DNA of 63,359 nt, the filler included, from Licmophora abbreviata (taxonomy: Eukaryota): the NCBI GenBank assembly GCA_900291995.1. It is 12 parts of 12 records of this genome, joined end to end, with 100 filler letters (N's around TTAATTAATTAA, not from the genome) between each part and the next. Parts side by side here need not be neighbours in the genome. Positions count along the whole stretch, not along the records: positions 37,732 to 41,148 come from OLMU01000649.1; 11 more parts are not named here. One strand, given 5' to 3'. A program made the translations under genes and the position numbers. The notes beneath the pieces were generated by a model. The model saw only the letters and a list, made by a program, of their open reading frames with translations, was not told where the DNA came from and did not search any database. Positions 35,652 through 44,651 of this stretch are shown here, in pieces. Numbering within the stretch: position 1 is the stretch's first letter; each line of letters begins with the position of its first letter.

Positions 35652-37080
35652 ATGTCAGCGTCAAGTCGAATGTGGTGTCGATGTCTGATTTTGACTGCTT
35701 TCTTTAGACTTTCGAACAGTTTTGTGTTTCCCTCTAGAGTTCGGCTTCGACCGACATCAGCGCAACGATGTCTCCGCCTTGGTTCTCCTCGTCTTGCGAT
35801 GAGCGGGAGAAGTTATTTCGAGGCCCACAAAAACATAGAGATCCCCCTATTGGACCTCAGAGACTCGGAATATGCTGAAAAGATCATTACGCCACTGCCA
35901 TCCGCTCATTTGCCCGATGAACTGAGGACCGTTCACCTCTACGGCATGGAGCTTCGTCGACCTGTTCATAAAATGTTGATTGAACAAGCGATTGAGGCTG
36001 GAGCTACCACACCGTCCCAGGAGCGGCTCTATGGTCATCTAGTCACCAAACGAGATACGGAAGACTTGGTGGGGGCGATTGGCTGTAGCTCGGAGATCCT
36101 CATCAATGCGCTACCAGAGGAACCACAGAATGCGGGAAGTGACGTCGGAGACGATGCTCCGATCACCGTACTATGCCGCGGGGCTTTTCGGTTTCGAGTC
36201 AAGGAAATCAAAACGACGTTTCCGTATCCTGTAGCGATTGTGGATGAGCTGATCGATGATACTCCATCCACCAAGGAAAACACTGATGTTGATGGTGAAA
36301 ATGTCTTTGACGACGACGACGACGATGATGATGATCCATACGCATCTCTCGACACTCCCGAACTTGTTCAACGGACCTTGACTGGGATCAAGGCATTGGT
36401 GGACCAAAAACTGGGCAAAGAGGAGATTTCACCTCTGGAACAAGTGATTTTGGAGGATAGCGGGATAGACGTCACCGCGCAAAAGGACCAAGCCGAAGAG
36501 ATGGCGGCTGTGCTCGGAGTATTTATAGCATCGCTGATTGATATTGCTCCCATGCCGGTGGATCGCTTTTTTGCCATTGGTATGTTGGCAGCAGAACTTG
36601 CTAATTTTGATAACAAACAACGGGAGGAGATTCTTTGCATGACGGACGGCGTGGCGCGACTAAGAGTCGTTCTCGAAGCAGTGGACGGGAAGGTTGCACT
36701 CAATCGAGCCAAGAAGGTCGCCGAAGAAGTAACAGAGACAGTTAATGAAGTCAGCAGGGATCTCACAGTGGTAGGATGAGCTCATATGTGGTATGTGTGC
36801 GCCAGTGAAGAACTGTTGCTCGGTCCTCACACTGTATGACTTCATCCAATTCGCCCCGCAGGGAGAACCTGAGTTACCTGTTTGGGCCAAATCCCTTACT
36901 GATGGAACGCGGCTTGAGTACTTTTGGAACGAAATGTACGGCTGGGTCGGTGGGGTGGTCGTTGGCGAACCCATGAAGATAGTGGACGAGCTAGTTGTGA
37001 CTGTGAAGTTCGACGACGGCGAAACCCACAAACTTCCCTTTCGAGCCGACGAAAAGGTACGATGGAGACCTCCGCAGTAG
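35652..37080 (+). CDS. Plastid-targeted Lon N-terminal (substrate-binding) domain protein (exons 35652-36770, 36862-37080)
   Basis: Signal ending SNS-F; 'VGAIGCSSEI', 'CRGAFRFRVKEIKTTFPYPVAIVDELID', 'REEILCMTDGVARL'. C-terminal Tudor/SH3-like segment. Confidence 0.7.
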
Positions 37081-37431: not shown

Positions 37432-38293
37432 ATGAGCGGAAAAGGTAAGTTTACGACCATAAGATCGTCTATCGACTGCTTGTTACTGTAAGGTTTGGCT
37501 ATTTGGATCGTATGAGTAATGTGTCCAAGCGATTTGGGAGGATAATGAGCTTAAAACGGTCAAACCGTCTTGATAGACACGACAACGCACTTCTCACGCC
37601 GCAGCCTTGCTCTCGTATCGCTTTTACTGTTNNNNNNNNNNNNNNNNNNNNNNNNNNNNNNNNNNNNNNNNNNNNTTAATTAATTAANNNNNNNNNNNNN
37701 NNNNNNNNNNNNNNNNNNNNNNNNNNNNNNNGGCAAAGCTGGAAAGTCTGTCTCTTCTTCCACCAAGGCTGGATTGCAGTTCCCGGTCGGTCGTATCGGC
37801 CGCTACCTCCGTCAGGGAAAGTACGCCACTCGCATGGGTGCCGGCGCTCCCGTGTACCTTGCGGCCGTCCTTGAGTATCTCTGTGCCGAGATCCTCGAGC
37901 TCGCTGGCAACGCTGCCCGTGACAACAAGAAGAGTCGCATGTATGTTTATGATACGTTCTGTACAATCTTGGACGTAATCTGTACGATGCGACCTCTCTA
38001 GAGAGTAATCCTGTGTTACTCACAGTCCTCCCTGTCTTTGTGTATCCAGCGCTCCTCGTCACATCACTCTTGCCGTCAAGAACGACGAGGAGCTGAATAA
38101 CTTGCTCGGAAATGTGACGATTGCATCTGGTGGTGTCCTTCCAAATATCCATGCGGTGAGTGTTTTGGAGTACTGAAGCGTCCTCGGTGCGAATCGTCAC
38201 TCACACGTGACATTGTTCTCTCTCGTCATATGGCAGGTGCTCCTCCCCAAGAAATCGGGAAGCAAGGGCAAGGGGGCCAGTCAGGAATATTAG
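37432..38293 (+). CDS. H2AX: Histone H2A.X with at least three introns
   Basis: '[15 protein letters not shown]', '[26 protein letters not shown]'. Introns at 37445-(gap), 37941-38049 and 38156-38236; spliced C-terminus '[18 protein letters not shown]'. Confidence 0.93.
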
Positions 38294-38660
38294 CAATCTT
38301 CTGTGTCTTTGTGTATGGGGTCGTAAAGCGCATCGCTGTATGTTTGGGGCATCCACAGGTACCATTCATCTCGACTGTCGCAAGCCTGCGACTGTTTGGG
38401 TGACTTGATAAGGAAGCTTCTGATATGTAATGCCTACGATAGCAGTATTAGTTCTTGGCCCATTGATCATGAGTAGATTTACCCGTGCACTAGACAGAAG
38501 TCGTCCTGTTAAGCTGTGTGATTGCGTTGTCGTGGTGGGCCCTCTAAAGTAGATCTACTCGTAGACTTTATGTCGCAATGTTTCTTTGGTCCAGGGGAAG
38601 ACATAGATTAACACGACCTGTTATGATGACATGTCAGACTAAAGATTGCTAAAATGCAAT

Positions 38661-39788
38661 CTAGTCGCCCCTGTCGTCCACACCGGCCTTGGCGTTCGCC
38701 CAATGATTCCCGTTGAGCTTGACATCGACCGTGATCTTGCTCGCCCGCTTGGTGTCGTCAAGCTCCGTCGTTTCCAGCACGGAATACGATAGATCCGCCA
38801 ACCCATTTGACTTCCATGTAGTTTCGTGCTCATCTAGGGCTTCCCACTTGACCATACACTTCCATTCCTTATTACTCTTCAAGAAATCCAGTTTCTCGTG
38901 CAATGTCATTTCCTCAAGATCCTTCAGTGTTCCTTGATCGGGCCATTCCCACCTTATCCCTAGTTTCTCGAGCCGTTTTTGCATTTCATCGTCTTCGCCT
39001 CCCCACCCCCAGAACGTATTGGGATATCCATTGATTCGCTTATAGTCCGACAAGGAAAAACTCACTACGCCGCCGAAATACTTGGGATTGTTGGAGTATC
39101 GATCCCACACCCGTGCAATATGAATCGGCACCTTGGGAAACTTGGCATAGTAGGCACCCAGATCCGTTTGAGGCAAGAGATCAACGTCGTGAAAAATACA
39201 CACATCATGTCGCCTTTTCGACTTGCGCGCGAGATCAAACCCAATGTTTAAAAGTTTTCCTCGGTTGAACTTCCGGCCATCATTGCTCTGCTCGATAATA
39301 TAAATGGCGTAATCACTGACACGTTTCGTCTTCAAGAGGTGTCTCAGAAACTCGTGCATGTGCGGAATAAATTGTTTCAGATGCTTCGCTCGATGCTGAG
39401 AGGGATGCAAGTCCCGGTAAGGAACAATGATTGCTACCGAGGTGGCATCTGCCAAGTCCAAGTCTTCATCAGGAGCCAGCGGCTTGGAGGCAGCAGTCGC
39501 TGTGCGAGCACGCTTGGCCGCCGGTGGCTCGACTCTAACTCGCGAAACAATATCTCCCAGATCAGACGAAGACTTGGCCACCGATGCCTGCTTTTGTTTC
39601 TGTTCTCGTTTCACATTCATTTCCGCTCTTCGTTTGGCTTTCGAGGGGTCGGCAGCTTCGGATGCGGTTGGGAAGTGCCACTGTGTGTGCTTCGTCTCGG
39701 AATGAGAGTAGTAATGGCGCTTCTGCGAATTTGAAAAGCCACGAGACCAGCCGGGGGGCAGAGGAGCGTCACTGCCGGAGTCTGACAT
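38661..39788 (-). CDS. WW-domain + GT7 (beta-1,4-galactosyltransferase-like) protein
   Basis: WW 'LPPGWSRGFSNSQKRHYYSHSETKHTQWHFP'. GT7 motifs 'IIVPYRD', 'FNRGKLLNIGF', 'FHDVDLLP', 'YFGGV', 'INGYPNTFWGWGGEDDE'. Confidence 0.88.
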   Translation of the reverse strand: MSDSGSDAPLPPGWSRGFSNSQKRHYYSHSETKHTQWHFPTASEAADPSKAKRRAEMNVKREQKQKQASVAKSSSDLGDIVSRVRVEPPAAKRARTATAASKPLAPDEDLDLADATSVAIIVPYRDLHPSQHRAKHLKQFIPHMHEFLRHLLKTKRVSDYAIYIIEQSNDGRKFNRGKLLNIGFDLARKSKRRHDVCIFHDVDLLPQTDLGAYYAKFPKVPIHIARVWDRYSNNPKYFGGVVSFSLSDYKRINGYPNTFWGWGGEDDEMQKRLEKLGIRWEWPDQGTLKDLEEMTLHEKLDFLKSNKEWKCMVKWEALDEHETTWKSNGLADLSYSVLETTELDDTKRASKITVDVKLNGNHWANAKAGVDDRGD

Positions 39789-40060
39789 GGCTTTGAGTAA
39801 TGGTAGAGAGGAGAGACGACGGATAACAAGGCTGCAGGCACGGCAATAGAAATCTAGACCTTCATGGTTCTCATGCTGCGGTCCGTCGCCACGCGACACG
39901 TTGGTCAGCGGTCGCCGTACGTACCAGGTACCATTACGTGACATTTTTTTCGGCCGCAGACGGGACGTGGGAAGCTAACATAGATGCGGCCCGAAGGGAG
40001 GCATCGCCTATGCATCGCGCCTATGGATCACCTCTATAGCATTATTGATCGGATAGATGC

Positions 40061-41765
40061 TTACGCTGCCATGTACGCCGTCGGTTTCTCCTTGAAGTCT
40101 GCTATACGTTCCACTTCCTTCATGACACGCAAACACTTTTCATCCTGAAAGGCCGGTGTCATGACGCTTACTCCCAGGGGCAAGCCGGCACTGCCTTGCA
40201 TGACCTTGTTGGCGAGTCTCGCCAAGTGATCTTGCTGGTTGGTTGGGAGAACGTCCATGGGATAGCTCTGCTCGTGTTCTTGAACCGTTGTAACGGGTAC
40301 AATGCCGGCAGGCCACAACAACATGTTGGCCATGAACATGTACGAAAATGCCGACGTAAGGTCGCCCGAGATGCCATGTGGCAGTGCGGGAAGCGGTAGA
40401 GCTGGACTAATAATGGCATCGACTCCTGATCGAACGACCGCATTGGCCCATGCCCTACGTAGTTTAATCAGCTCTGCAGTCAGCTGCCATAATTCCCACA
40501 CAGATATGCCACCAGAGCCTGTTCGGGAAAGACGTACAATCGCAGGTGAGCTTTCACATCGGGGTTGACAAAGACAGTGGAACTCAACCATTACTCACGT
40601 CCAGCTCCAAGGAGATGACCTCGACGCTTGTCAATCAGCATACAAACGAGCGGGCGCAACACGTTAGGAAGATTCGCCGCCTTGTACAGCGTTCCGTATT
40701 CGGAAATCAATTCTTCTCCTTCTAGTGCCTCTACAAAGCTCCGCATGTTTCCTTCCGCGGCATTGATAGCTACCAACAGTCCATAGGAGTGCCATCCGTC
40801 TGTCGGGGCTTCGAACGGAACACACGTGTGTCCTGCCTGCGTCAGGGCGTCAATCGTTTCTCGCAGACCTCGCTTCGCGGCAGCGCATGGTTCGAACCAA
40901 TGGTCCGTCTCGAAGTATCCAATCGTGAGCCTGCCACTCGTTCGGTAGGCGTTGTCGTCGAATGGAATCCGTGGGATGTTAAGATCGGCGTCGAAGAGCT
41001 CTGTCACGCACACAGCTTTCATGAAAAGCGCACAGTCGTCGACCGAACGAGCGATTGGTCCGACCGTAGCTGGAATGGCCACGGTAGTTCCGGACTTGTT
41101 GTCCTTCCGAGGTCTCATGTTGCCCATGTCAGAGAGACGTGTTGATGTNNNNNNNNNNNNNNNNNNNNNNNNNNNNNNNNNNNNNNNNNNNNTTAATTAA
41201 TTAANNNNNNNNNNNNNNNNNNNNNNNNNNNNNNNNNNNNNNNNNNNNGTCTGAGCCGACATGCCAGTCCGCCCGTCGAGAAAGAACCTTTCAAGCCGAT
41301 GCAGTCCTTGACTGAAATCGGAACACCATAGAGAGGCTGCTTGTCCGAAATATTTCCTTTCCAGGCCGGTGTTTTGGCTGTCGCGTACGCATCGTCGTAG
41401 AGCTCCTCCGTTATCGCGTTGGCGCGCTGCTCGTCTCGTCCGTACCGTCTACAGCGCCTTGCAAGAACGACCACGTGCTCTGCAGGCTCCAGTTTTCGAG
41501 AAGCAACTCTGTCTCCTGTCTCCGATGCCGTCAGCTCACTGTTCGATTCCTCTTGCTGGATGGGAAGCTCCAAGCAATGGTGTACCTTGGTACGTTCCTC
41601 GCGGACGGCTCGGGCGATCCATTCGTCGAGCTCGGCTCTCCGCGTCCGCCGTTTCTGAATCTTTAGGACAATTAGGGACGATACGAGCACCACAGCGCCT
41701 GCGACGACGTATTGTGTCATTGACATGGTTGGAAGAGTACCGCTGTGCGGCGTCGTCTCAAGCAT
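40061..41765 (-). CDS. Fatty acid amide hydrolase / amidase-signature enzyme (middle lost in linker; intron 40519-40598)
   Basis: N-terminal TM, 'PLYGVPISVKDC', 'GPIARSVDD', 'GLPLGVSV...DEKCLRVMKEVE'. The GGSS signature presumably lies in the gap. Confidence 0.88.
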
Positions 41766-42476: not shown

Positions 42477-44651
42477 ATGATGGACTCAGATCCATCGTTG
42501 CACCCTCATGGCCCTACTTCGTCAACTCCGGTGCCCACGGATGCCCTCTTGAGGCATCCTTTGCGACAGAGGAAAGGCTCCCTGCCATTCAAGAAGCGTC
42601 GACTTTTTGATACGATGCAGCCTCTCTCCACTCCTTCTGGACTCCGCAGCATGCTTCATCCAGTGACCCCTTCACCTCATCGCACCATGTCTATGATGGG
42701 CAGTAGCGACGAAACTATCGCTGCATTGGCCTTAGTAGCTGCTGCTGCCTCTCCCTTGATGGCTCGGTCCGTGTCAGAGATGGCACCGAGCGACGAAGAT
42801 CGAGCCACCCCCGTGAATCCCATACTGATGCGCAACAACGACGTTTCGTTGTTGGAATCGTCCGTTTGCAAACTGGTTTCTCCAGAAGTTACCCATTCAA
42901 TCAAGGAACTGCCACCTCCCAGTCCGAGCCCCGGCGGTAGCCGGCGGGTGCACCACCCTCCTCTCTTGGCGCCTAACCCAAATGGTTGTCACGGTATAAC
43001 TTCGCGCAACAACTCCTACTGTCGTCGCACGCCCTGCTATAAGAATAGCAAGTTCTGCAAACTACACTACCAACAGAACATGGTCTCGGGGAATCAACCA
43101 ACAGAGGAGGAGCCGTCGTCGATTGATCTGGAAGAACAAGCCACCGCAACTACTACCACACCATCGACAAGTTCTACATCTGGTGTGACCTTTCAGGATA
43201 GACGATTCTCAGGTCTGAGTGGAGAACGGCGTTGCTCGGCCACTACTACAAGAGGGAGATCGTGTGCGTACGTTGCAGTCAACGACACGCAGTACTGCTA
43301 TCTCCATGCGGATTACGATAACAACCCACCCCCGAGACGTGGTGGCGCTTCTACCACGATATTGATGGCGCAGGCGGGTCTGCTGTCTTCGAATGATCCT
43401 AAATTCTCGGTAAAGACGCCCCTGGTGCCTCCCCTCAAGCTCAATACGCTGTCCGCCCCGTGCCTTCACTCTTCGCCTCCGTCTGTCACATCAGAAGAAT
43501 CGAATTCGTCGCACTTGGCGACGCAAGATGCACATGTTGTACCTGCTGCTGGAGGATCTCCATATCCGATGCTGAGTTCTGTTTCCTCCAACCATTGGTA
43601 CGATCTCAAAGTCCTCATCACGACTGGGCCTTTGATAAATCGTGTGGGGCGTGTGACCAGGTGGGGAAATGGATGGGTTTCCGTACAAGTCCTGACCAGC
43701 TCCGGTGAGATTGCCCAAGGTTTGGTGCACAATCGTCGATCTGTCGAACTGTTGCTTGTTCCCGAAGACCATCCACTAGAACCAATGCCATCACAGTCCA
43801 AGAGCTTGGTCGTAGAACACAGTGGGATGTCATATGACACGGAGGATTCACCTCTCAAGCGGTGTGTGTCGAATGGAATTGACGGCTCGAGTTTGCGAAA
43901 AGCGGGCACGGCCTTTTTGTCTGTAGCAAACGACGAAGCAGCTGCTGAGCAGCAGTTCATGTCGCCCTGTGTGAGCGACTCTGTCGACGAGAATGACAAG
44001 GTAACAAACAACCATTCCAACATTGACGATGGTGCATTTGCGACGCCTGCGCTTTCTCTGAAGACGACTCCATTGGGCGACGTCTCCCAGAAAACGGCAC
44101 CAGATGAGCAAATCACCGCCCTGGCATCCTTGTCGAAAAGCGACTCACTAGTCGTAGTTGACATGGCCCCTCCAGAGCCTGCAAAGCATCAAAGTGTGAC
44201 AATGGCAGATACTTTAGAGGGAAAATCGGTCGCTGAAGGCGCTACAGAGCATGCTAGAAACGCTTCTCGCTCATCGTTCGAGAGCGTGAGAACGAAGCCA
44301 CTTGCCAGCACTGATATAACTTCGCTGCCATCAGAAGAAAATCGGGAGAGTTGCTCATTGCCTTCAGCAATCACGCCGACGCAGTATTCTTCCAGCGACG
44401 GACACACGCCGGGGAAGGAGAAGGAGCTAGGTCAAGTTCTGACAACGGAAGGTCGTGGCCGTAAGCACTCGCTCGACTTGCTGTTTGGTACTGCCGCACT
44501 GGACAGAAGTCGCCGAAAAGTTCAAAAACCGTCGCGGTACGAAGATACTGCAATGTTGGAAAAAGCAATAGCTAGTCAACAGGTCCTAGAAGGTGCACTA
44601 AAGGCAGCTTCCCCTTCGCCCCGAAAGCGGGGCTATTCTGGGTCTACGTGA
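42477..44651 (+). CDS. Hypothetical nuclear protein with two C3H zinc-finger-like motifs and a KOW/SH3-like domain
   Basis: 'CHGITSRNNSYCRRTPCYKNSKFCKLH', 'CSATTTRGRSCAYVAVNDTQYCYLH', 'KVLITTGPLINRVGRVTRWGNGWVSV', 'LPFKKRR'. Confidence 0.7.
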   Translation: MMDSDPSLHPHGPTSSTPVPTDALLRHPLRQRKGSLPFKKRRLFDTMQPLSTPSGLRSMLHPVTPSPHRTMSMMGSSDETIAALALVAAAASPLMARSVSEMAPSDEDRATPVNPILMRNNDVSLLESSVCKLVSPEVTHSIKELPPPSPSPGGSRRVHHPPLLAPNPNGCHGITSRNNSYCRRTPCYKNSKFCKLHYQQNMVSGNQPTEEEPSSIDLEEQATATTTTPSTSSTSGVTFQDRRFSGLSGERRCSATTTRGRSCAYVAVNDTQYCYLHADYDNNPPPRRGGASTTILMAQAGLLSSNDPKFSVKTPLVPPLKLNTLSAPCLHSSPPSVTSEESNSSHLATQDAHVVPAAGGSPYPMLSSVSSNHWYDLKVLITTGPLINRVGRVTRWGNGWVSVQVLTSSGEIAQGLVHNRRSVELLLVPEDHPLEPMPSQSKSLVVEHSGMSYDTEDSPLKRCVSNGIDGSSLRKAGTAFLSVANDEAAAEQQFMSPCVSDSVDENDKVTNNHSNIDDGAFATPALSLKTTPLGDVSQKTAPDEQITALASLSKSDSLVVVDMAPPEPAKHQSVTMADTLEGKSVAEGATEHARNASRSSFESVRTKPLASTDITSLPSEENRESCSLPSAITPTQYSSSDGHTPGKEKELGQVLTTEGRGRKHSLDLLFGTAALDRSRRKVQKPSRYEDTAMLEKAIASQQVLEGALKAASPSPRKRGYSGST

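What the first reader, a model, noticed from the sequence alone, without database searches (positions are those of the whole stretch)
38661..39788. Soluble WW-domain GT7 glycosyltransferase: candidate nuclear, phospho-directed glycosylation system
Seen: a GT7 domain with intact motifs (DVD, FGGV, WGWGGEDD) but no signal anchor or TM helix. Instead there is an N-terminal WW domain and basic NLS-like segments (KAKRR, PAAKRAR). Known: characterised GT7 enzymes are type II Golgi membrane proteins. The loop 'FSNSQKRHYY' resembles the pSer/Thr-Pro-binding WW domains of Pin1, PCIF1 and CMTR1, which dock on the phosphorylated RNA Pol II CTD. Inference: a nucleocytoplasmic sugar transferase recruited to phosphoproteins or transcription complexes, modifying a protein, nascent RNA or a DNA base. 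This is the best candidate for an undescribed system in the window.
Basis: partly seen in the sequence, partly recalled or inferred. Interest (0 to 1): 0.78.

Follow-up and report, generated by a model that had tools for sequence, protein, structure and literature searches.

The report
Soluble WW-linked sugar transferase tied to mRNA capping
A diatom-type gene encodes a membrane-less galactosyltransferase-like enzyme carrying a Pin1-type docking domain, and its closest relatives are repeatedly fused to mRNA-capping enzymes, which points to an undescribed sugar modification made at the transcription machinery.

Summary
Window 38661-39788 (minus strand) is one open frame of 375 aa. It holds a WW domain (res 9-42), a basic helix, a disordered linker with a KRAR motif, and a GT7 (beta4-galactosyltransferase-like) catalytic domain with DVD, FGGV and WGWGGEDD intact. 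There is no hydrophobic anchor.

The architecture is conserved across diatoms. It also occurs in a brown alga and a xanthophyte.

- A profile of WW domains from WW-GT7 proteins hits Pin1 WW domains best (56 bits, gapless). Prp40, Ess1 and PCIF1 follow.
- The nearest relatives of the GT7 domain (45-56% identity, far closer than animal B4GALT1) are mostly membrane-less. Of the 120 listed long relatives, 88 are fused to mRNA-capping guanylyltransferase, cap N7-methyltransferase or PCIF1-like domains, and 18 to helicases. Many lie on giant-virus contigs.

A residue signature separates this cap/WW-type GT7 from viral GT7 genes that sit in glycan clusters.

Most likely this is a nuclear enzyme docked on the Pol II CTD that adds a hexose at the mRNA 5' end or to an associated protein glycan. 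The substrate is inferred, not shown. Ten open-access literature searches found no description of it.

The parts
38661..39788 (-). Single-exon coding sequence of the WW-GT7 protein (375 aa plus stop codon at 38661-38663)
   Evidence: Translation. Pfam domains. Collinear with orthologues over the full length.
39663..39764 (-). WW domain, res 9-42 (PLPPGW...QWHFPT). Pin1-type: long loop 1 (FSNSQKR) and Trp-Trp spacing of 23.
   Evidence: Pfam WW. AF2 strands 14-19 and 24-29 at pLDDT above 90. Gapless alignment to Pin1/Ess1 against a one-residue gap to NEDD4L/Itch. Family profile hits Pin1 best.
39561..39662 (-). Conserved segment after the WW domain (SEAxDPxKAKxRAE) that continues into a long basic helix, res 43-76
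   Evidence: Conserved columns E96, P100, K104 and near-invariant A103, R106 in alignment A1. AF2 helix 48-73.
39444..39560 (-). Variable, disordered linker, res 77-115, holding an NLS-like KRAR at res 92-95 (window 39504-39515)
   Evidence: pLDDT below 50 for res 77-102. K[KR]x[KR] occurs in the linker of 108 of 112 orthologues in which both domain borders were found.
38679..39443 (-). GT7 (beta4-galactosyltransferase-like, GT-A fold) catalytic domain, res 116-370
   Evidence: Pfam GT7N and GT7C. phmmer to B4GALT1 E 3.9e-30 and to B4GALT7 E 2.4e-22. Foldseek to 1nf5_B E 1.2e-20, TM 0.72. pLDDT 95-98.
39180..39188 (-). DVD motif (res 201-203), equivalent to B4GALT1 D252-V253-D254
   Evidence: Read in the sequence. 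Aligned to B4GALT1. D201 and D203 are present in 99 of 99 clade domains.
38988..39011 (-). WGWGGEDD (res 260-267). It holds the equivalents of B4GALT1 W314, E317 and the catalytic base D318.
   Evidence: W262, G263 and D266 are in 99 of 99 clade domains and E265 in 98 of 99.
39789..39944 (-). In-frame upstream extension (52 codons from an ATG at 39944), probably 5' UTR and not part of the protein
   Evidence: No counterpart in 26 aligned orthologues. No TM-like segment in any case.

Best explanation
The gene encodes a soluble, most likely nuclear, UDP-sugar transferase of the GT7 family. It is not a Golgi enzyme.

Proposed mechanism:
- The N-terminal Pin1-type WW domain docks the enzyme on Ser/Thr-Pro-phosphorylated proteins. 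The favoured partner is the RNA polymerase II CTD.
- The basic helix and the KRAR motif in the disordered linker would serve nuclear import.
- The catalytic domain keeps the full inverting GT-A machinery (DVD, catalytic Asp in WGWGGEDD). It also keeps the two residues that favour UDP-Gal in B4GALT1, the Arg228 and Tyr289 equivalents.
- It therefore probably transfers a hexose, most likely galactose, to a sugar hydroxyl of a substrate at the 5' end of nascent transcripts.

Favoured acceptor: a ribose of the mRNA cap structure. Second choice: a sugar already attached to a CTD- or RNA-associated protein.

Shown here: domain composition, absence of a membrane anchor, conservation, fold, WW subtype by sequence, and fusion of the same GT7 subfamily to capping enzymes. 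Inferred: localisation, phospho-dependence of binding, donor sugar and acceptor.

The confidence of 0.5 is for the general statement (a nucleocytoplasmic enzyme that works at the transcription / mRNA 5'-end machinery). The cap as acceptor I put at about 0.3.
For: Soluble:
- No TM-like segment in the 375-aa or the 427-aa reading, nor in 119 of 121 orthologue-level proteins.
- 133 of 150 clade representatives also lack one.

A real, expressed, conserved gene:
- 1784 hits at E<=1e-3. Of the 120 listed, 104 carry WW+GT7N+GT7C in the precomputed Pfam column, and 11 carry MMETSP transcript names.
- Every organism named is a diatom.
- WW-GT7 also occurs in the brown alga Nemacystus decipiens and the xanthophyte Tribonema minus.

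Catalytically competent:
- B4GALT1 E 3.9e-30, with DVD, WGWGGEDD and the Arg228, Tyr289 and Met344 equivalents aligned.
- AF2 mean pLDDT 88.2. Foldseek puts B4GALT1 and B4GALT7 on top.

Pin1-type WW:
- W-W spacing of 23 in 112 of 121 proteins. The loop reads S-x-S, with x = N in 48, K in 48, R in 10 and other residues in 6.
- The profile of 14 WW domains scores Pin1 56 bits, Prp40 52, Ess1 45 and PCIF1 42, against 35 or less for single class-I WW chains.

Fusions in relatives (Rosetta-stone evidence):
- 10 of 99 representatives scanned carry cap N7-MTase, capping GTase or a PCIF1-like domain, and 24 of 99 carry WW.
- Of the 120 listed long relatives, 88 carry PF01331, PF03291 or PF12237 and 18 carry helicase domains.
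- A MAST-4 stramenopile protein reads WW-like / PCIF1 (E 5.6e-48 to 6irx) / cap MTase / GT7 / O-MTase-like.
- Oomycetes have GT7 fused to a DEAD-box RNA helicase. A diatom has RGG-rich / GT90 / GT7. Both are without a TM segment.
- Giant-virus contigs carry single ORFs reading GT7-GTase-N7MTase, or GTase-N7MTase-GT7. A gene with a FtsJ-like MTase match follows in 3 of the 7 such loci scanned (clear in L108 at 75.5 bits; at or just below the Pfam cut-off in L009 and L018). One stand-alone GT7 sits between TBP-like, TFIIS and RPB1 genes.

Signature:
- R230, Y231, Y237, D290-x-E292, K299 and L303 are shared by the WW-fused, helicase-fused and transcription-adjacent GT7 domains, and by the cap-fused ones with only single departures in two of them (P0243 at 230/231, P0169 at 237).
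- They are replaced in 10 viral GT7 genes lying in glycan clusters and in the GT90-fused L112.
Against: - Nothing was measured: no localisation, no binding, no activity.
- No RNA run could be laid on the gene, so the 5' end rests on orthologues alone.
- Every characterised GT7 enzyme extends a glycan (established knowledge). None is known to act on RNA.
- The same clade is also fused or adjacent to GT90 (five of the 120 long relatives, including a diatom protein whose GT7 domain is 68% identical to this one). Some viral GT7 genes lie among GT90, sugar-methyltransferase-like and fucosyltransferase genes. That fits protein or capsid glycan synthesis.
- The Pin1 Arg17 position is Asn here and in 48 of 112 orthologues. 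The Arg14 position is Gly (Pin1 roles recalled).
- As a single sequence, the window's WW scores about the same against class-I WW domains (Nedd4-2, 28.0 bits) as against Pin1 (25.7 bits).
- K[KR]x[KR] is easy to find by chance in a basic linker.
- The domain tree is poorly resolved (48 of 108 inner branches open, FastTree only). The number of independent fusion events is therefore uncertain.
- Giant-virus RNA polymerases may lack a CTD (not examined here). The WW-CTD part and the capping-fusion part of the argument therefore rest on different organisms.
Confidence: 0.5

Rival explanations
1. It extends protein-linked glycans in the nucleus or cytoplasm. The WW domain binds a proline-rich or phosphorylated substrate protein, such as the Pol II CTD, RNA-binding proteins or capping factors. 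The GT7 domain adds Gal to a sugar already placed on Ser/Thr by another enzyme, for example a GT90 or an O-GlcNAc-type transferase. RNA is not the acceptor.
For: - Every characterised GT7 enzyme uses a sugar acceptor (established knowledge). B4GALT1 is the closest solved relative.
- GT90, a protein O-glycosyltransferase family, is fused to this GT7 subfamily in TM-less proteins. These include the diatom Seminavis robusta protein (68% identity in the GT7 domain, RGG-rich N-terminus).
- GT90 is adjacent to or fused with GT7 on viral contigs.
- WW domains bind proteins, not RNA.
Against: - 88 of the 120 listed long relatives are fused to enzymes whose only known substrate is the RNA 5' end.
- In the viral GT7-capping-enzyme proteins no priming glycosyltransferase is present in the polypeptide or in the two flanking genes on either side that were scanned.
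- The viral GT7 genes that sit beside GT90 mostly carry a different residue signature from the window's domain.
Confidence: 0.27
2. It glycosylates a modified DNA base, as base J glucosylation does. The enzyme would be brought to chromatin through the transcription machinery.
For: - 18 of the 120 listed long relatives are fused to SNF2, ResIII, Helicase_C or DEAD domains.
- P0135 combines SNF2 with GT7. From recall, this resembles JBP2, which joins a hydroxylase to SNF2.
Against: - No hydroxylase (TET/JBP-like) domain appeared in any of the architectures scanned.
- The oomycete helicase partner is a DEAD-box type annotated as an RNA helicase.
- Fusions to cap enzymes outnumber fusions to helicases by 88 to 18.
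Confidence: 0.08
3. It is an ordinary secretory-pathway galactosyltransferase for cell-surface or frustule glycans. Its targeting signal was missed by the gene model, or targeting is unconventional.
For: - GT7 enzymes characterised so far are Golgi type II membrane proteins (established knowledge).
- Some viral relatives sit in glycan-synthesis clusters.
- The 5' end was not confirmed with reads.
Against: - There is no TM-like segment in either reading of the N-terminus, nor in 119 of 121 orthologue-level proteins.
- Those orthologues include the 11 of 120 listed hits that bear MMETSP transcript names, some marked type:complete.
- About 270 nt of upstream intergenic space leaves little room for another exon.
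- WW domains are intracellular modules.
- The aligned B4GALT1 disulfide cysteines are absent.
Confidence: 0.05
4. It is a giant-virus-derived gene kept in algal genomes. Its function belongs to virus-host conflict, for instance marking or unmarking RNA 5' ends as self or non-self, and not to routine host mRNA processing.
For: - Beyond the protein's own diatom cluster, the nearest ESM Atlas clusters are Nucleocytoviricota GT7 proteins.
- The best BFVD structural match is the 805-aa Aureococcus anophagefferens virus protein annotated as a putative beta-1,4-galactosyltransferase (E 4.3e-24). [quoted passage not shown] That the two are the same protein is my assumption.
- Many relatives lie on IMG/VR giant-virus contigs.
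Against: - The WW-GT7 architecture is conserved across diatoms, a brown alga and a xanthophyte, which fits long vertical inheritance.
- GC content of the region matches its surroundings.
- This reading concerns origin and is compatible with the best explanation.
Confidence: 0.1

Closest known systems
Animal beta-1,4-galactosyltransferases B4GALT1 and B4GALT7 (CAZy GT7)
   Same: - GT-A fold and both Pfam halves.
- DVD motif and WGWGGEDD with the catalytic Asp.
- Equivalents of Arg228, Tyr289 and Met344.
   Different: - No cytoplasmic tail, TM anchor or stem.
- The aligned disulfide cysteines are replaced.
- His347 is not conserved among orthologues.
- The clade has its own invariant residues: W228, R230, Y231, D290, E292, K299, K310, K314, E316.
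- It carries an N-terminal WW domain.
- Sequence distance is large: E about 1e-30, against 1e-60 to 1e-98 for the protist and viral clade.
Pin1 / Ess1 WW domain (group IV, pSer/pThr-Pro binding)
   Same: - Same length, aligned without gaps.
- Ser16, Arg21, Tyr23 and Trp34 equivalents are conserved.
- Pin1 is the best PDB match of the family profile.
   Different: - The partner domain is a glycosyltransferase, not a prolyl isomerase.
- The Arg17 position is Asn in the window protein, and K or R in 58 of 112 orthologues.
- The Arg14 position is Gly.
- Phospho-peptide binding is untested.
PCIF1/CAPAM (WW domain plus cap-specific adenosine N6-methyltransferase docked on the Ser5-phosphorylated CTD)
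   Same: - The layout is an N-terminal WW domain followed by a modifying enzyme.
- The PCIF1 WW domain is among the profile hits (2jx8, E 4.7e-10).
- PCIF1-like domains occur in one polypeptide with this GT7 subfamily: P0129, P0311 and P0312.
   Different: The catalytic domain here is a sugar transferase, not a methyltransferase. The window protein has no PCIF1 domain of its own.
Known nucleocytoplasmic glycosyltransferases: OGT/SPY (GT41), the Skp1 glycosylation enzymes, and the tRNA queuosine galactosyl- and mannosyltransferases (all recalled, not tested here)
   Same: They are soluble enzymes that use nucleotide sugars outside the secretory pathway. The queuosine enzymes show that RNA can be a glycosyl acceptor.
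   Different: They belong to other GT families and folds. None has a WW domain, and none is linked to capping enzymes.
Giant-virus mRNA capping enzymes carrying a GT7 domain (uncharacterised; IMG/VR contigs L006, L009, L018, L099, L102, L104, L108)
   Same: The GT7 subfamily and residue signature are the same as in the window protein, at 44-54% identity.
   Different: In the viral proteins the GT7 domain is covalently joined to guanylyltransferase and N7-methyltransferase and there is no WW domain. The host protein is a separate polypeptide that would be recruited through its WW domain.

Membership tests
CAZy GT7 (beta4-Gal/GalNAc transferases) | GT-A fold with Glyco_transf_7N and Glyco_transf_7C | tested here: met
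   Pfam E 2.7e-21 and 2.4e-22. Foldseek to B4GALT1 E 1.2e-20 and to B4GALT7 E 1.8e-18.
CAZy GT7 (beta4-Gal/GalNAc transferases) | DxD metal/UDP site, and WGWGGEDD with the catalytic Asp (B4GALT1 D252/D254, E317/D318) | tested here: met
   Aligned residue by residue to bovine B4GALT1. D201, D203 and D266 are in 99 of 99 clade domains and E265 in 98 of 99. B4GALT1 numbering is recalled and agrees with the chain offset.
CAZy GT7 (beta4-Gal/GalNAc transferases) | Type II membrane topology (N-terminal signal anchor and stem) | tested here: not met
   Highest 19-residue hydropathy mean is 0.81, or 0.97 with the upstream extension, against a threshold of 1.6.
CAZy GT7 (beta4-Gal/GalNAc transferases) | Lumenal disulfides of B4GALT1 (Cys176, Cys247, Cys266; recalled) | tested here: not met
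   The aligned positions are Leu, Val and Lys in the window protein. The family has a single conserved Cys, in the WKC motif.
CAZy GT7 (beta4-Gal/GalNAc transferases) | Transfer of Gal or GalNAc from a UDP-sugar to a sugar acceptor | not testable with these tools
   Only donor-side residues could be compared. The Arg228 and Tyr289 equivalents are present, which by recall favours UDP-Gal.
Group IV (Pin1-type) WW domain | Two Trp 23 residues apart, a long loop 1 with the Ser16 equivalent, and the Tyr23/Trp34 clamp | tested here: met
   Spacing of 23 in 112 of 121 proteins. S, Y, W and P are invariant in the 14-sequence profile. Gapless 34-residue alignment to Pin1 at 56 bits.
Group IV (Pin1-type) WW domain | Basic residue at the Arg17 position of the phosphate-binding loop | tested here: not met
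   The window protein has Asn20. Among 112 orthologues the position is N in 48, K in 48, R in 10 and other in 6. Most non-diatom WW-GT7 proteins have Lys.
Group IV (Pin1-type) WW domain | Binding of pSer/pThr-Pro peptides | not testable with these tools
   This needs peptide-binding assays.
PCIF1/CAPAM family | PCIF1 helical and methyltransferase region (Pfam PF12237) | tested here: not met
   It is absent from the window protein. It is present only in relatives that also hold the GT7 domain. The resemblance is in layout, not in membership.
Classical monopartite NLS | K-K/R-x-K/R in an exposed, disordered segment | tested here: inconclusive
   KRAR at res 92-95 lies in a segment with pLDDT below 50. 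The pattern occurs in 108 of 112 orthologue linkers. The linkers are basic, so chance matches are likely, and import was not tested.

The most novel reading that the evidence does not exclude
This GT7 subfamily writes a sugar onto the mRNA 5' cap, on a ribose hydroxyl of the cap structure. In ochrophyte algae the enzyme would reach nascent transcripts through a Pin1-type WW domain docked on the phosphorylated Pol II CTD. In many giant viruses the same domain is built into the capping enzyme itself. A glycosylated cap could then serve as a self/non-self or stability mark in the conflict between algae and their giant viruses.
Probability: 0.3. Interest if true: 0.95.

Novelty: categorically new. 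Interest (0 to 1): 0.85.

Why it matters
No glycosyltransferase is known to belong to the mRNA-capping or CTD-coupled RNA-processing apparatus. No sugar-modified mRNA cap has been described either; this rests on my recall and on the ten open-access searches.

This subfamily occurs in diatoms and other ochrophytes, which are major primary producers, in oomycetes, and in many giant viruses of protists. If it acts at the RNA 5' end, it adds a new chemical layer to eukaryotic and viral mRNA.

That would bear on translation, decapping and virus-host discrimination. It might also explain why a giant virus packages a GT7 enzyme in its virion.

Even under the more conservative reading, CTD-directed extension of protein glycans, it would be the first GT7 enzyme working in the nucleus.

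The idea can be tested directly by cap LC-MS and a knockout in a transformable diatom.

Tried and rejected
- RNA evidence for the 5' end: no RNA holder was listed for window 38300-40300.
- Whole genome: none is held for this window. Paralogues and CTD, OGT or PCIF1 genes of the same organism could not be sought.
- Earlier findings of this scan: nothing found by place, sequence or words.
- Search for short proteins with the WW region: it returned only 10 fragments of orthologues and no Pin1-type proteins. The WW subtype was settled with a profile against PDB instead.
- IQ-TREE quick search on 111 domains did not finish in 288 s. The FastTree tree is poorly resolved. I use it only to say that cap fusions are scattered (at least 5 placements forced by starred branches) and that the window groups with P0102, P0126 and P0131 at 96% support.
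- The P0148-type architecture (capping enzyme - GT7 - MTase) was sought in IMG/VR. The 80 loci kept match only the capping-enzyme part (residues about 5-1220), not the GT7 part.
- Rejected: that the whole viral GT7 clade is glycan-synthetic. The residue signature separates the cap/WW type from the glycan-cluster type.
- Rejected: that the upstream ATG at 39944 adds a targeting signal.
- Literature: ten searches found no description of WW-GT7 proteins or of GT7-capping-enzyme fusions.
  - One search was uninformative because I set min_terms to 1.
  - The GT7 matches I checked in two of the papers turned out to be GT74 or GT75.
  - One search failed on a term that was too short.
  - Subscription journals and supplements were not searched.
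- Complex prediction was not used. A phospho-CTD cannot be modelled there and no CTD sequence was in hand.
Full report
**The object**

Window 38661-39788 on the minus strand is one uninterrupted frame of 375 codons plus a stop.
- FSNSQKRHYY at res 18-27.
- KAKRR at res 50-54.
- PAAKRAR at res 89-95.
- DVD at res 201-203.
- FGGV at res 238-241.
- WGWGGEDD at res 260-267.

Pfam finds a WW domain (E 6.1e-07, above its cut-off), Glyco_transf_7N (E 2.7e-21) and Glyco_transf_7C (E 2.4e-22).

The neighbours are ordinary nuclear genes. Upstream on the same strand lies an amidase read in three ORF pieces. Downstream lies a histone-fold fragment. GC content is about 0.50, like the rest of the window. 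All named close homologues come from diatoms. The ESM Atlas places the protein in a Bacillariophyta cluster.

**N-terminus and topology**

The frame stays open up to an ATG at 39944. Those 52 extra codons have no counterpart in 26 aligned orthologues. In most of these the WW motif follows the first Met by about 8-20 residues.

Neither reading of the N-terminus holds a hydrophobic segment. The best 19-residue Kyte-Doolittle mean is 0.81 for the short reading and 0.97 for the long one, against a threshold of 1.6. Of 121 proteins (the window protein plus the 120 listed hits), 119 have no such segment. The two exceptions look like gene-model artefacts: one at an odd N-terminus, one inside an insertion.

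Only about 270 nt lie between the ATG at 39788 and the stop of the amidase gene. No RNA run was listed for the region, so the 5' end rests on comparison with orthologues. At least 11 of the 120 listed hits bear MMETSP transcript names, some marked type:complete.

**Distribution**

- The word-indexed search gave 1784 hits at E<=1e-3. The 120 listed are 46-80% identical, and 104 of them carry WW+GT7N+GT7C in the precomputed Pfam column.
- The exhaustive search of 50%-identity representatives gave 5931 proteins at E<=1e-3 and 370 at E<=1e-30.
- I scanned 99 of the 150 listed representatives with Pfam. The 51 not scanned are mostly under 300 aa. Of the 99 scanned, 24 have a WW domain.
- Two of these WW-bearing representatives are named: the brown alga Nemacystus decipiens, and the xanthophyte Tribonema minus, where the protein is annotated only as 'galactosyl transferase'.

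The architecture is therefore at least ochrophyte-wide.

**Catalytic domain**

phmmer aligns res 111-356 to bovine B4GALT1 (E 3.9e-30) and to B4GALT7 (E 2.4e-22). The AF2 model built from a 50-sequence alignment has mean pLDDT 88.2, with 95-98 across the GT7 domain. Its best structural matches are B4GALT1 (E 1.2e-20, TM 0.72 on the target) and B4GALT7 (TM up to 0.79).

I recalled the B4GALT1 numbering and checked it against the chain offset of 116. On that numbering:
- D252/D254, W314, E317, D318, R228, Y289 and M344 all have identical counterparts.
- H347 aligns with His in the window protein but varies among orthologues.
- The three aligned disulfide cysteines (176, 247, 266) are Leu, Val and Lys. 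This fits a reducing compartment.

By recall of the B4GALT1 mutant literature, Arg228 and Tyr289 favour UDP-Gal over UDP-Glc and UDP-GalNAc. The donor prediction is therefore an inference.

**WW domain**

As a single sequence the window's WW is ambiguous. The Nedd4-2 WW scores 28.0 bits, Ess1 26.3 and Pin1 25.7. However, every class-I hit needs a one-residue gap, while Pin1 and Ess1 align without one.

The Trp-Trp spacing is 23 in 112 of 121 proteins. The loop reads S-x-S, with x = N in 48, K in 48, R in 10 and other residues in 6. Non-diatom WW-GT7 proteins mostly read SK[ST]xxRxY[WY][FY]N.

A profile of 14 such WW domains gives these PDB scores:
- Pin1 WW: 56 bits, E 1.9e-14, 34 residues without a gap.
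- Prp40: 52 bits.
- Ess1: 45 bits.
- PCIF1 WW (2jx8): 42 bits.
- TCERG1 and WBP4 also appear.
- Single class-I WW chains reach 35 bits at most.

In that alignment Pin1 Ser16, Arg21, Tyr23 and Trp34 face conserved S, R, Y and W. Arg17 faces K, N or R, and Arg14 faces Gly. The domain is Pin1-type in sequence. Phospho-peptide binding remains an inference.

**The decisive new observation: what the GT7 domain is fused to elsewhere**

The nearest non-orthologous relatives share 45-56% identity over res about 110-370. Their E-values run from 1e-98 to 1e-45, against 1e-30 for animal enzymes. Of the 150 representatives, 133 have no TM-like segment.

Among the 46 representatives of 400 aa or more:
- Nine carry the mRNA cap guanine-N7 methyltransferase domain.
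- Four of those nine also carry the capping guanylyltransferase domain.
- Two carry the PCIF1 region.
- Others carry SNF2/Helicase_C, an Rpb3/11-like domain, extra class-I methyltransferases, GT90, GT17/GT61 or a fucosidase.

A search restricted to proteins of 658-2000 aa found 255 at E<=1e-20. The 120 listed divide as follows:
- 88 carry PF01331, PF03291 or PF12237.
- 18 carry helicase domains.
- 5 carry GT90.
- 3 carry other partners: Arm/HEAT, Sel1, and WW plus DUF3431.
- 6 carry nothing else.

The cellular examples are all without TM segments:
- A MAST-4 stramenopile protein reads WW-like / PCIF1 (E 5.6e-48 to PDB 6irx) / cap methyltransferase (5.5e-16) / GT7 / a methyltransferase weakly resembling small-molecule and glucose O-methyltransferases.
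- Two oomycete proteins annotated as 'RNA helicase' read GT7 / DEAD-box helicase.
- A Phytophthora protein reads HEAT-like / GT7.
- A Seminavis robusta (diatom) protein reads RGG-rich low-complexity region / GT90 / GT7. Its GT7 part is 68% identical to the window's.

**Giant viruses**

IMG/VR giant-virus contigs carry single ORFs of 1563-1618 aa that read GT7 / (unassigned) / guanylyltransferase / N7-methyltransferase:
- L006, L009 and L018.
- L099, L102 and L104.
- L100, L103 and L123 have ORFs of the same size that I did not scan.

L108 has the order guanylyltransferase / N7-methyltransferase / GT7.

A gene with a FtsJ-like methyltransferase match follows in L009, L018 and L108. The match is clear in L108 (75.5 bits). 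In L009 and L018 it sits at or just below the Pfam cut-off (24.0 and 23.0 bits against 24.1).

In L109 a stand-alone GT7 gene lies between TBP-like, TFIIS and RPB1 genes.

The best BFVD structural match is an 805-aa Aureococcus anophagefferens virus protein. [quoted passage not shown] Its authors proposed a capsid-glycan role. That the BFVD protein is AaV_274 is my assumption.

**Counter-evidence and how far it goes**

Other viral stand-alone GT7 genes (L111, L113, L115, L117, L119, L121, L122, L125, L126, L128) lie among GT90, Methyltransf_24/FkbM, GT10, GT11 and GT2 genes. That looks like glycan synthesis. L112 is a GT90-GT7 fusion next to NUDIX and SNF2-like genes.

I aligned all of these to a profile of the diatom GT7 domain. 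Positions 230/231 (R-Y), 237 (Y), 290-292 (D-L-E), 299 (K) and 303 (L) are shared by several groups:
- The window protein.
- The WW-fused, helicase-fused and RPB1-adjacent forms.
- The cap-fused forms, with only single departures in two of them: P0243 reads D-R at 230/231, and P0169 reads C at 237.

In the ten glycan-cluster genes and in L112 these positions are replaced, for example by T-K, F or T, and E-L-P. Their profile scores are 60-188, against 215 or more for the first group. Across 99 clade domains these positions are 91-98% conserved.

The window's domain therefore belongs to the capping/transcription-associated type.

The GT90 fusion in a diatom, and the fact that all characterised GT7 enzymes extend sugars, keep the protein-glycan reading alive.

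**Mechanism proposed**

The proposed sequence of events:
1. Import into the nucleus. The basic helix at res 48-73 and the KRAR motif in the disordered linker would mediate this. The pattern K[KR]x[KR] occurs in 108 of 112 orthologue linkers, but chance matches are likely in basic sequence.
2. Docking through the Pin1-type WW domain on pSer-Pro sites, most plausibly the Pol II CTD.
3. Inverting transfer of a hexose, probably Gal, to a sugar hydroxyl.

In the viral proteins the GT7 domain shares one polypeptide with enzymes that act only on the RNA 5' end. No priming glycosyltransferase appeared there or in the two genes scanned on either side. The only sugar at hand is then the ribose of the cap structure, which is why I favour the cap as acceptor (about 0.3). 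Extension of an O-linked sugar on a CTD- or RNA-associated protein comes second (about 0.27). DNA-base glycosylation (0.08) and a missed secretory signal (0.05) follow.

**Literature and novelty**

Ten full-text searches found nothing on WW-GT7 proteins, soluble GT7 enzymes at the transcription machinery, or glycosyltransferase-capping-enzyme fusions. I read only passages of PMC9614988, PMC7507832, PMC10583209, PMC11468063 and PMC12507850. The library holds open-access papers and bioRxiv only, so a description in a subscription journal cannot be excluded.

In public databases the proteins carry generic names such as 'WW domain-containing protein', 'galactosyl transferase' and 'hypothetical protein'.

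**Verdict**

The system appears undescribed. The substrate is open.

Noticed in passing
L006 7713-12407, L009 7599-12374, L018 7677-12368, L099 5647-10353, L102 1248-5990, L104 5518-10371, L108 3733-7881: Giant-virus contigs encode single ORFs of about 1380-1620 aa joining a GT7 domain to the mRNA capping guanylyltransferase and the cap N7-methyltransferase. The GT7 domain is N-terminal in six and C-terminal in L108. In L009, L018 and L108 the next gene has a FtsJ-like methyltransferase match, clear in L108 and borderline in the other two.
   Followed up: partly
P0309 (Seminavis robusta, 1192 aa): A TM-less diatom protein has a long RGG/Gly-Arg-rich N-terminal region with a repeated Cys/His motif, then GT90, then a GT7 domain 68% identical to the window's. 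This is a second nucleocytoplasmic GT7 architecture in diatoms.
   Followed up: partly
P0321 (Peronospora effusa), P0327 (Phytophthora kernoviae), P0316 (Phytophthora citrophthora): Oomycetes carry the same GT7 subfamily fused to a DEAD-box RNA helicase, or placed behind HEAT-like repeats. Apart from one marginal hydrophobic window inside the GT7 domain of P0321, none has a TM-like segment.
   Followed up: partly
P0129 / P0311 / P0312 (MAST-4 and unnamed sources): Polypeptides of 1119-1560 aa read Pin1-type WW / PCIF1-like / cap N7-methyltransferase / GT7. P0129 and P0312 add an O-methyltransferase-like domain at the end. Almost the whole protein is devoted to cap modification.
   Followed up: partly
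L109 7232-12571 (minus strand): The giant-virus RPB1 gene next to a stand-alone GT7 gene contains an intein splicing domain inside the polymerase ORF.
   Followed up: no
L107 8443-9552: A hybrid histidine-kinase ATPase / response-regulator receiver protein is encoded on a giant-virus contig, close to a GT7 gene and a NUDIX gene.
   Followed up: no
window about 37690-37730 and about 41150-41250: Runs of N (read as X in the ORF translations) interrupt the histone-side ORF and the amidase gene. The coordinates are estimated from the ORF list.
   Followed up: no
window 42477-44651 (+): A 724-aa Ser/Pro-rich ORF has two Cys/His-rich motifs (around CRRTPCYKNSKFCKLH and CAYVAVNDTQYCYLH). It has no Pfam match at E<=1e-3.
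   Followed up: no
window 36793-37080 (+) and 35652-36779 (+): A small ORF has a sub-threshold BAHCC1-like Tudor match. A 375-aa ORF has a sub-threshold LON substrate-binding match and an acidic D-rich stretch.
   Followed up: no
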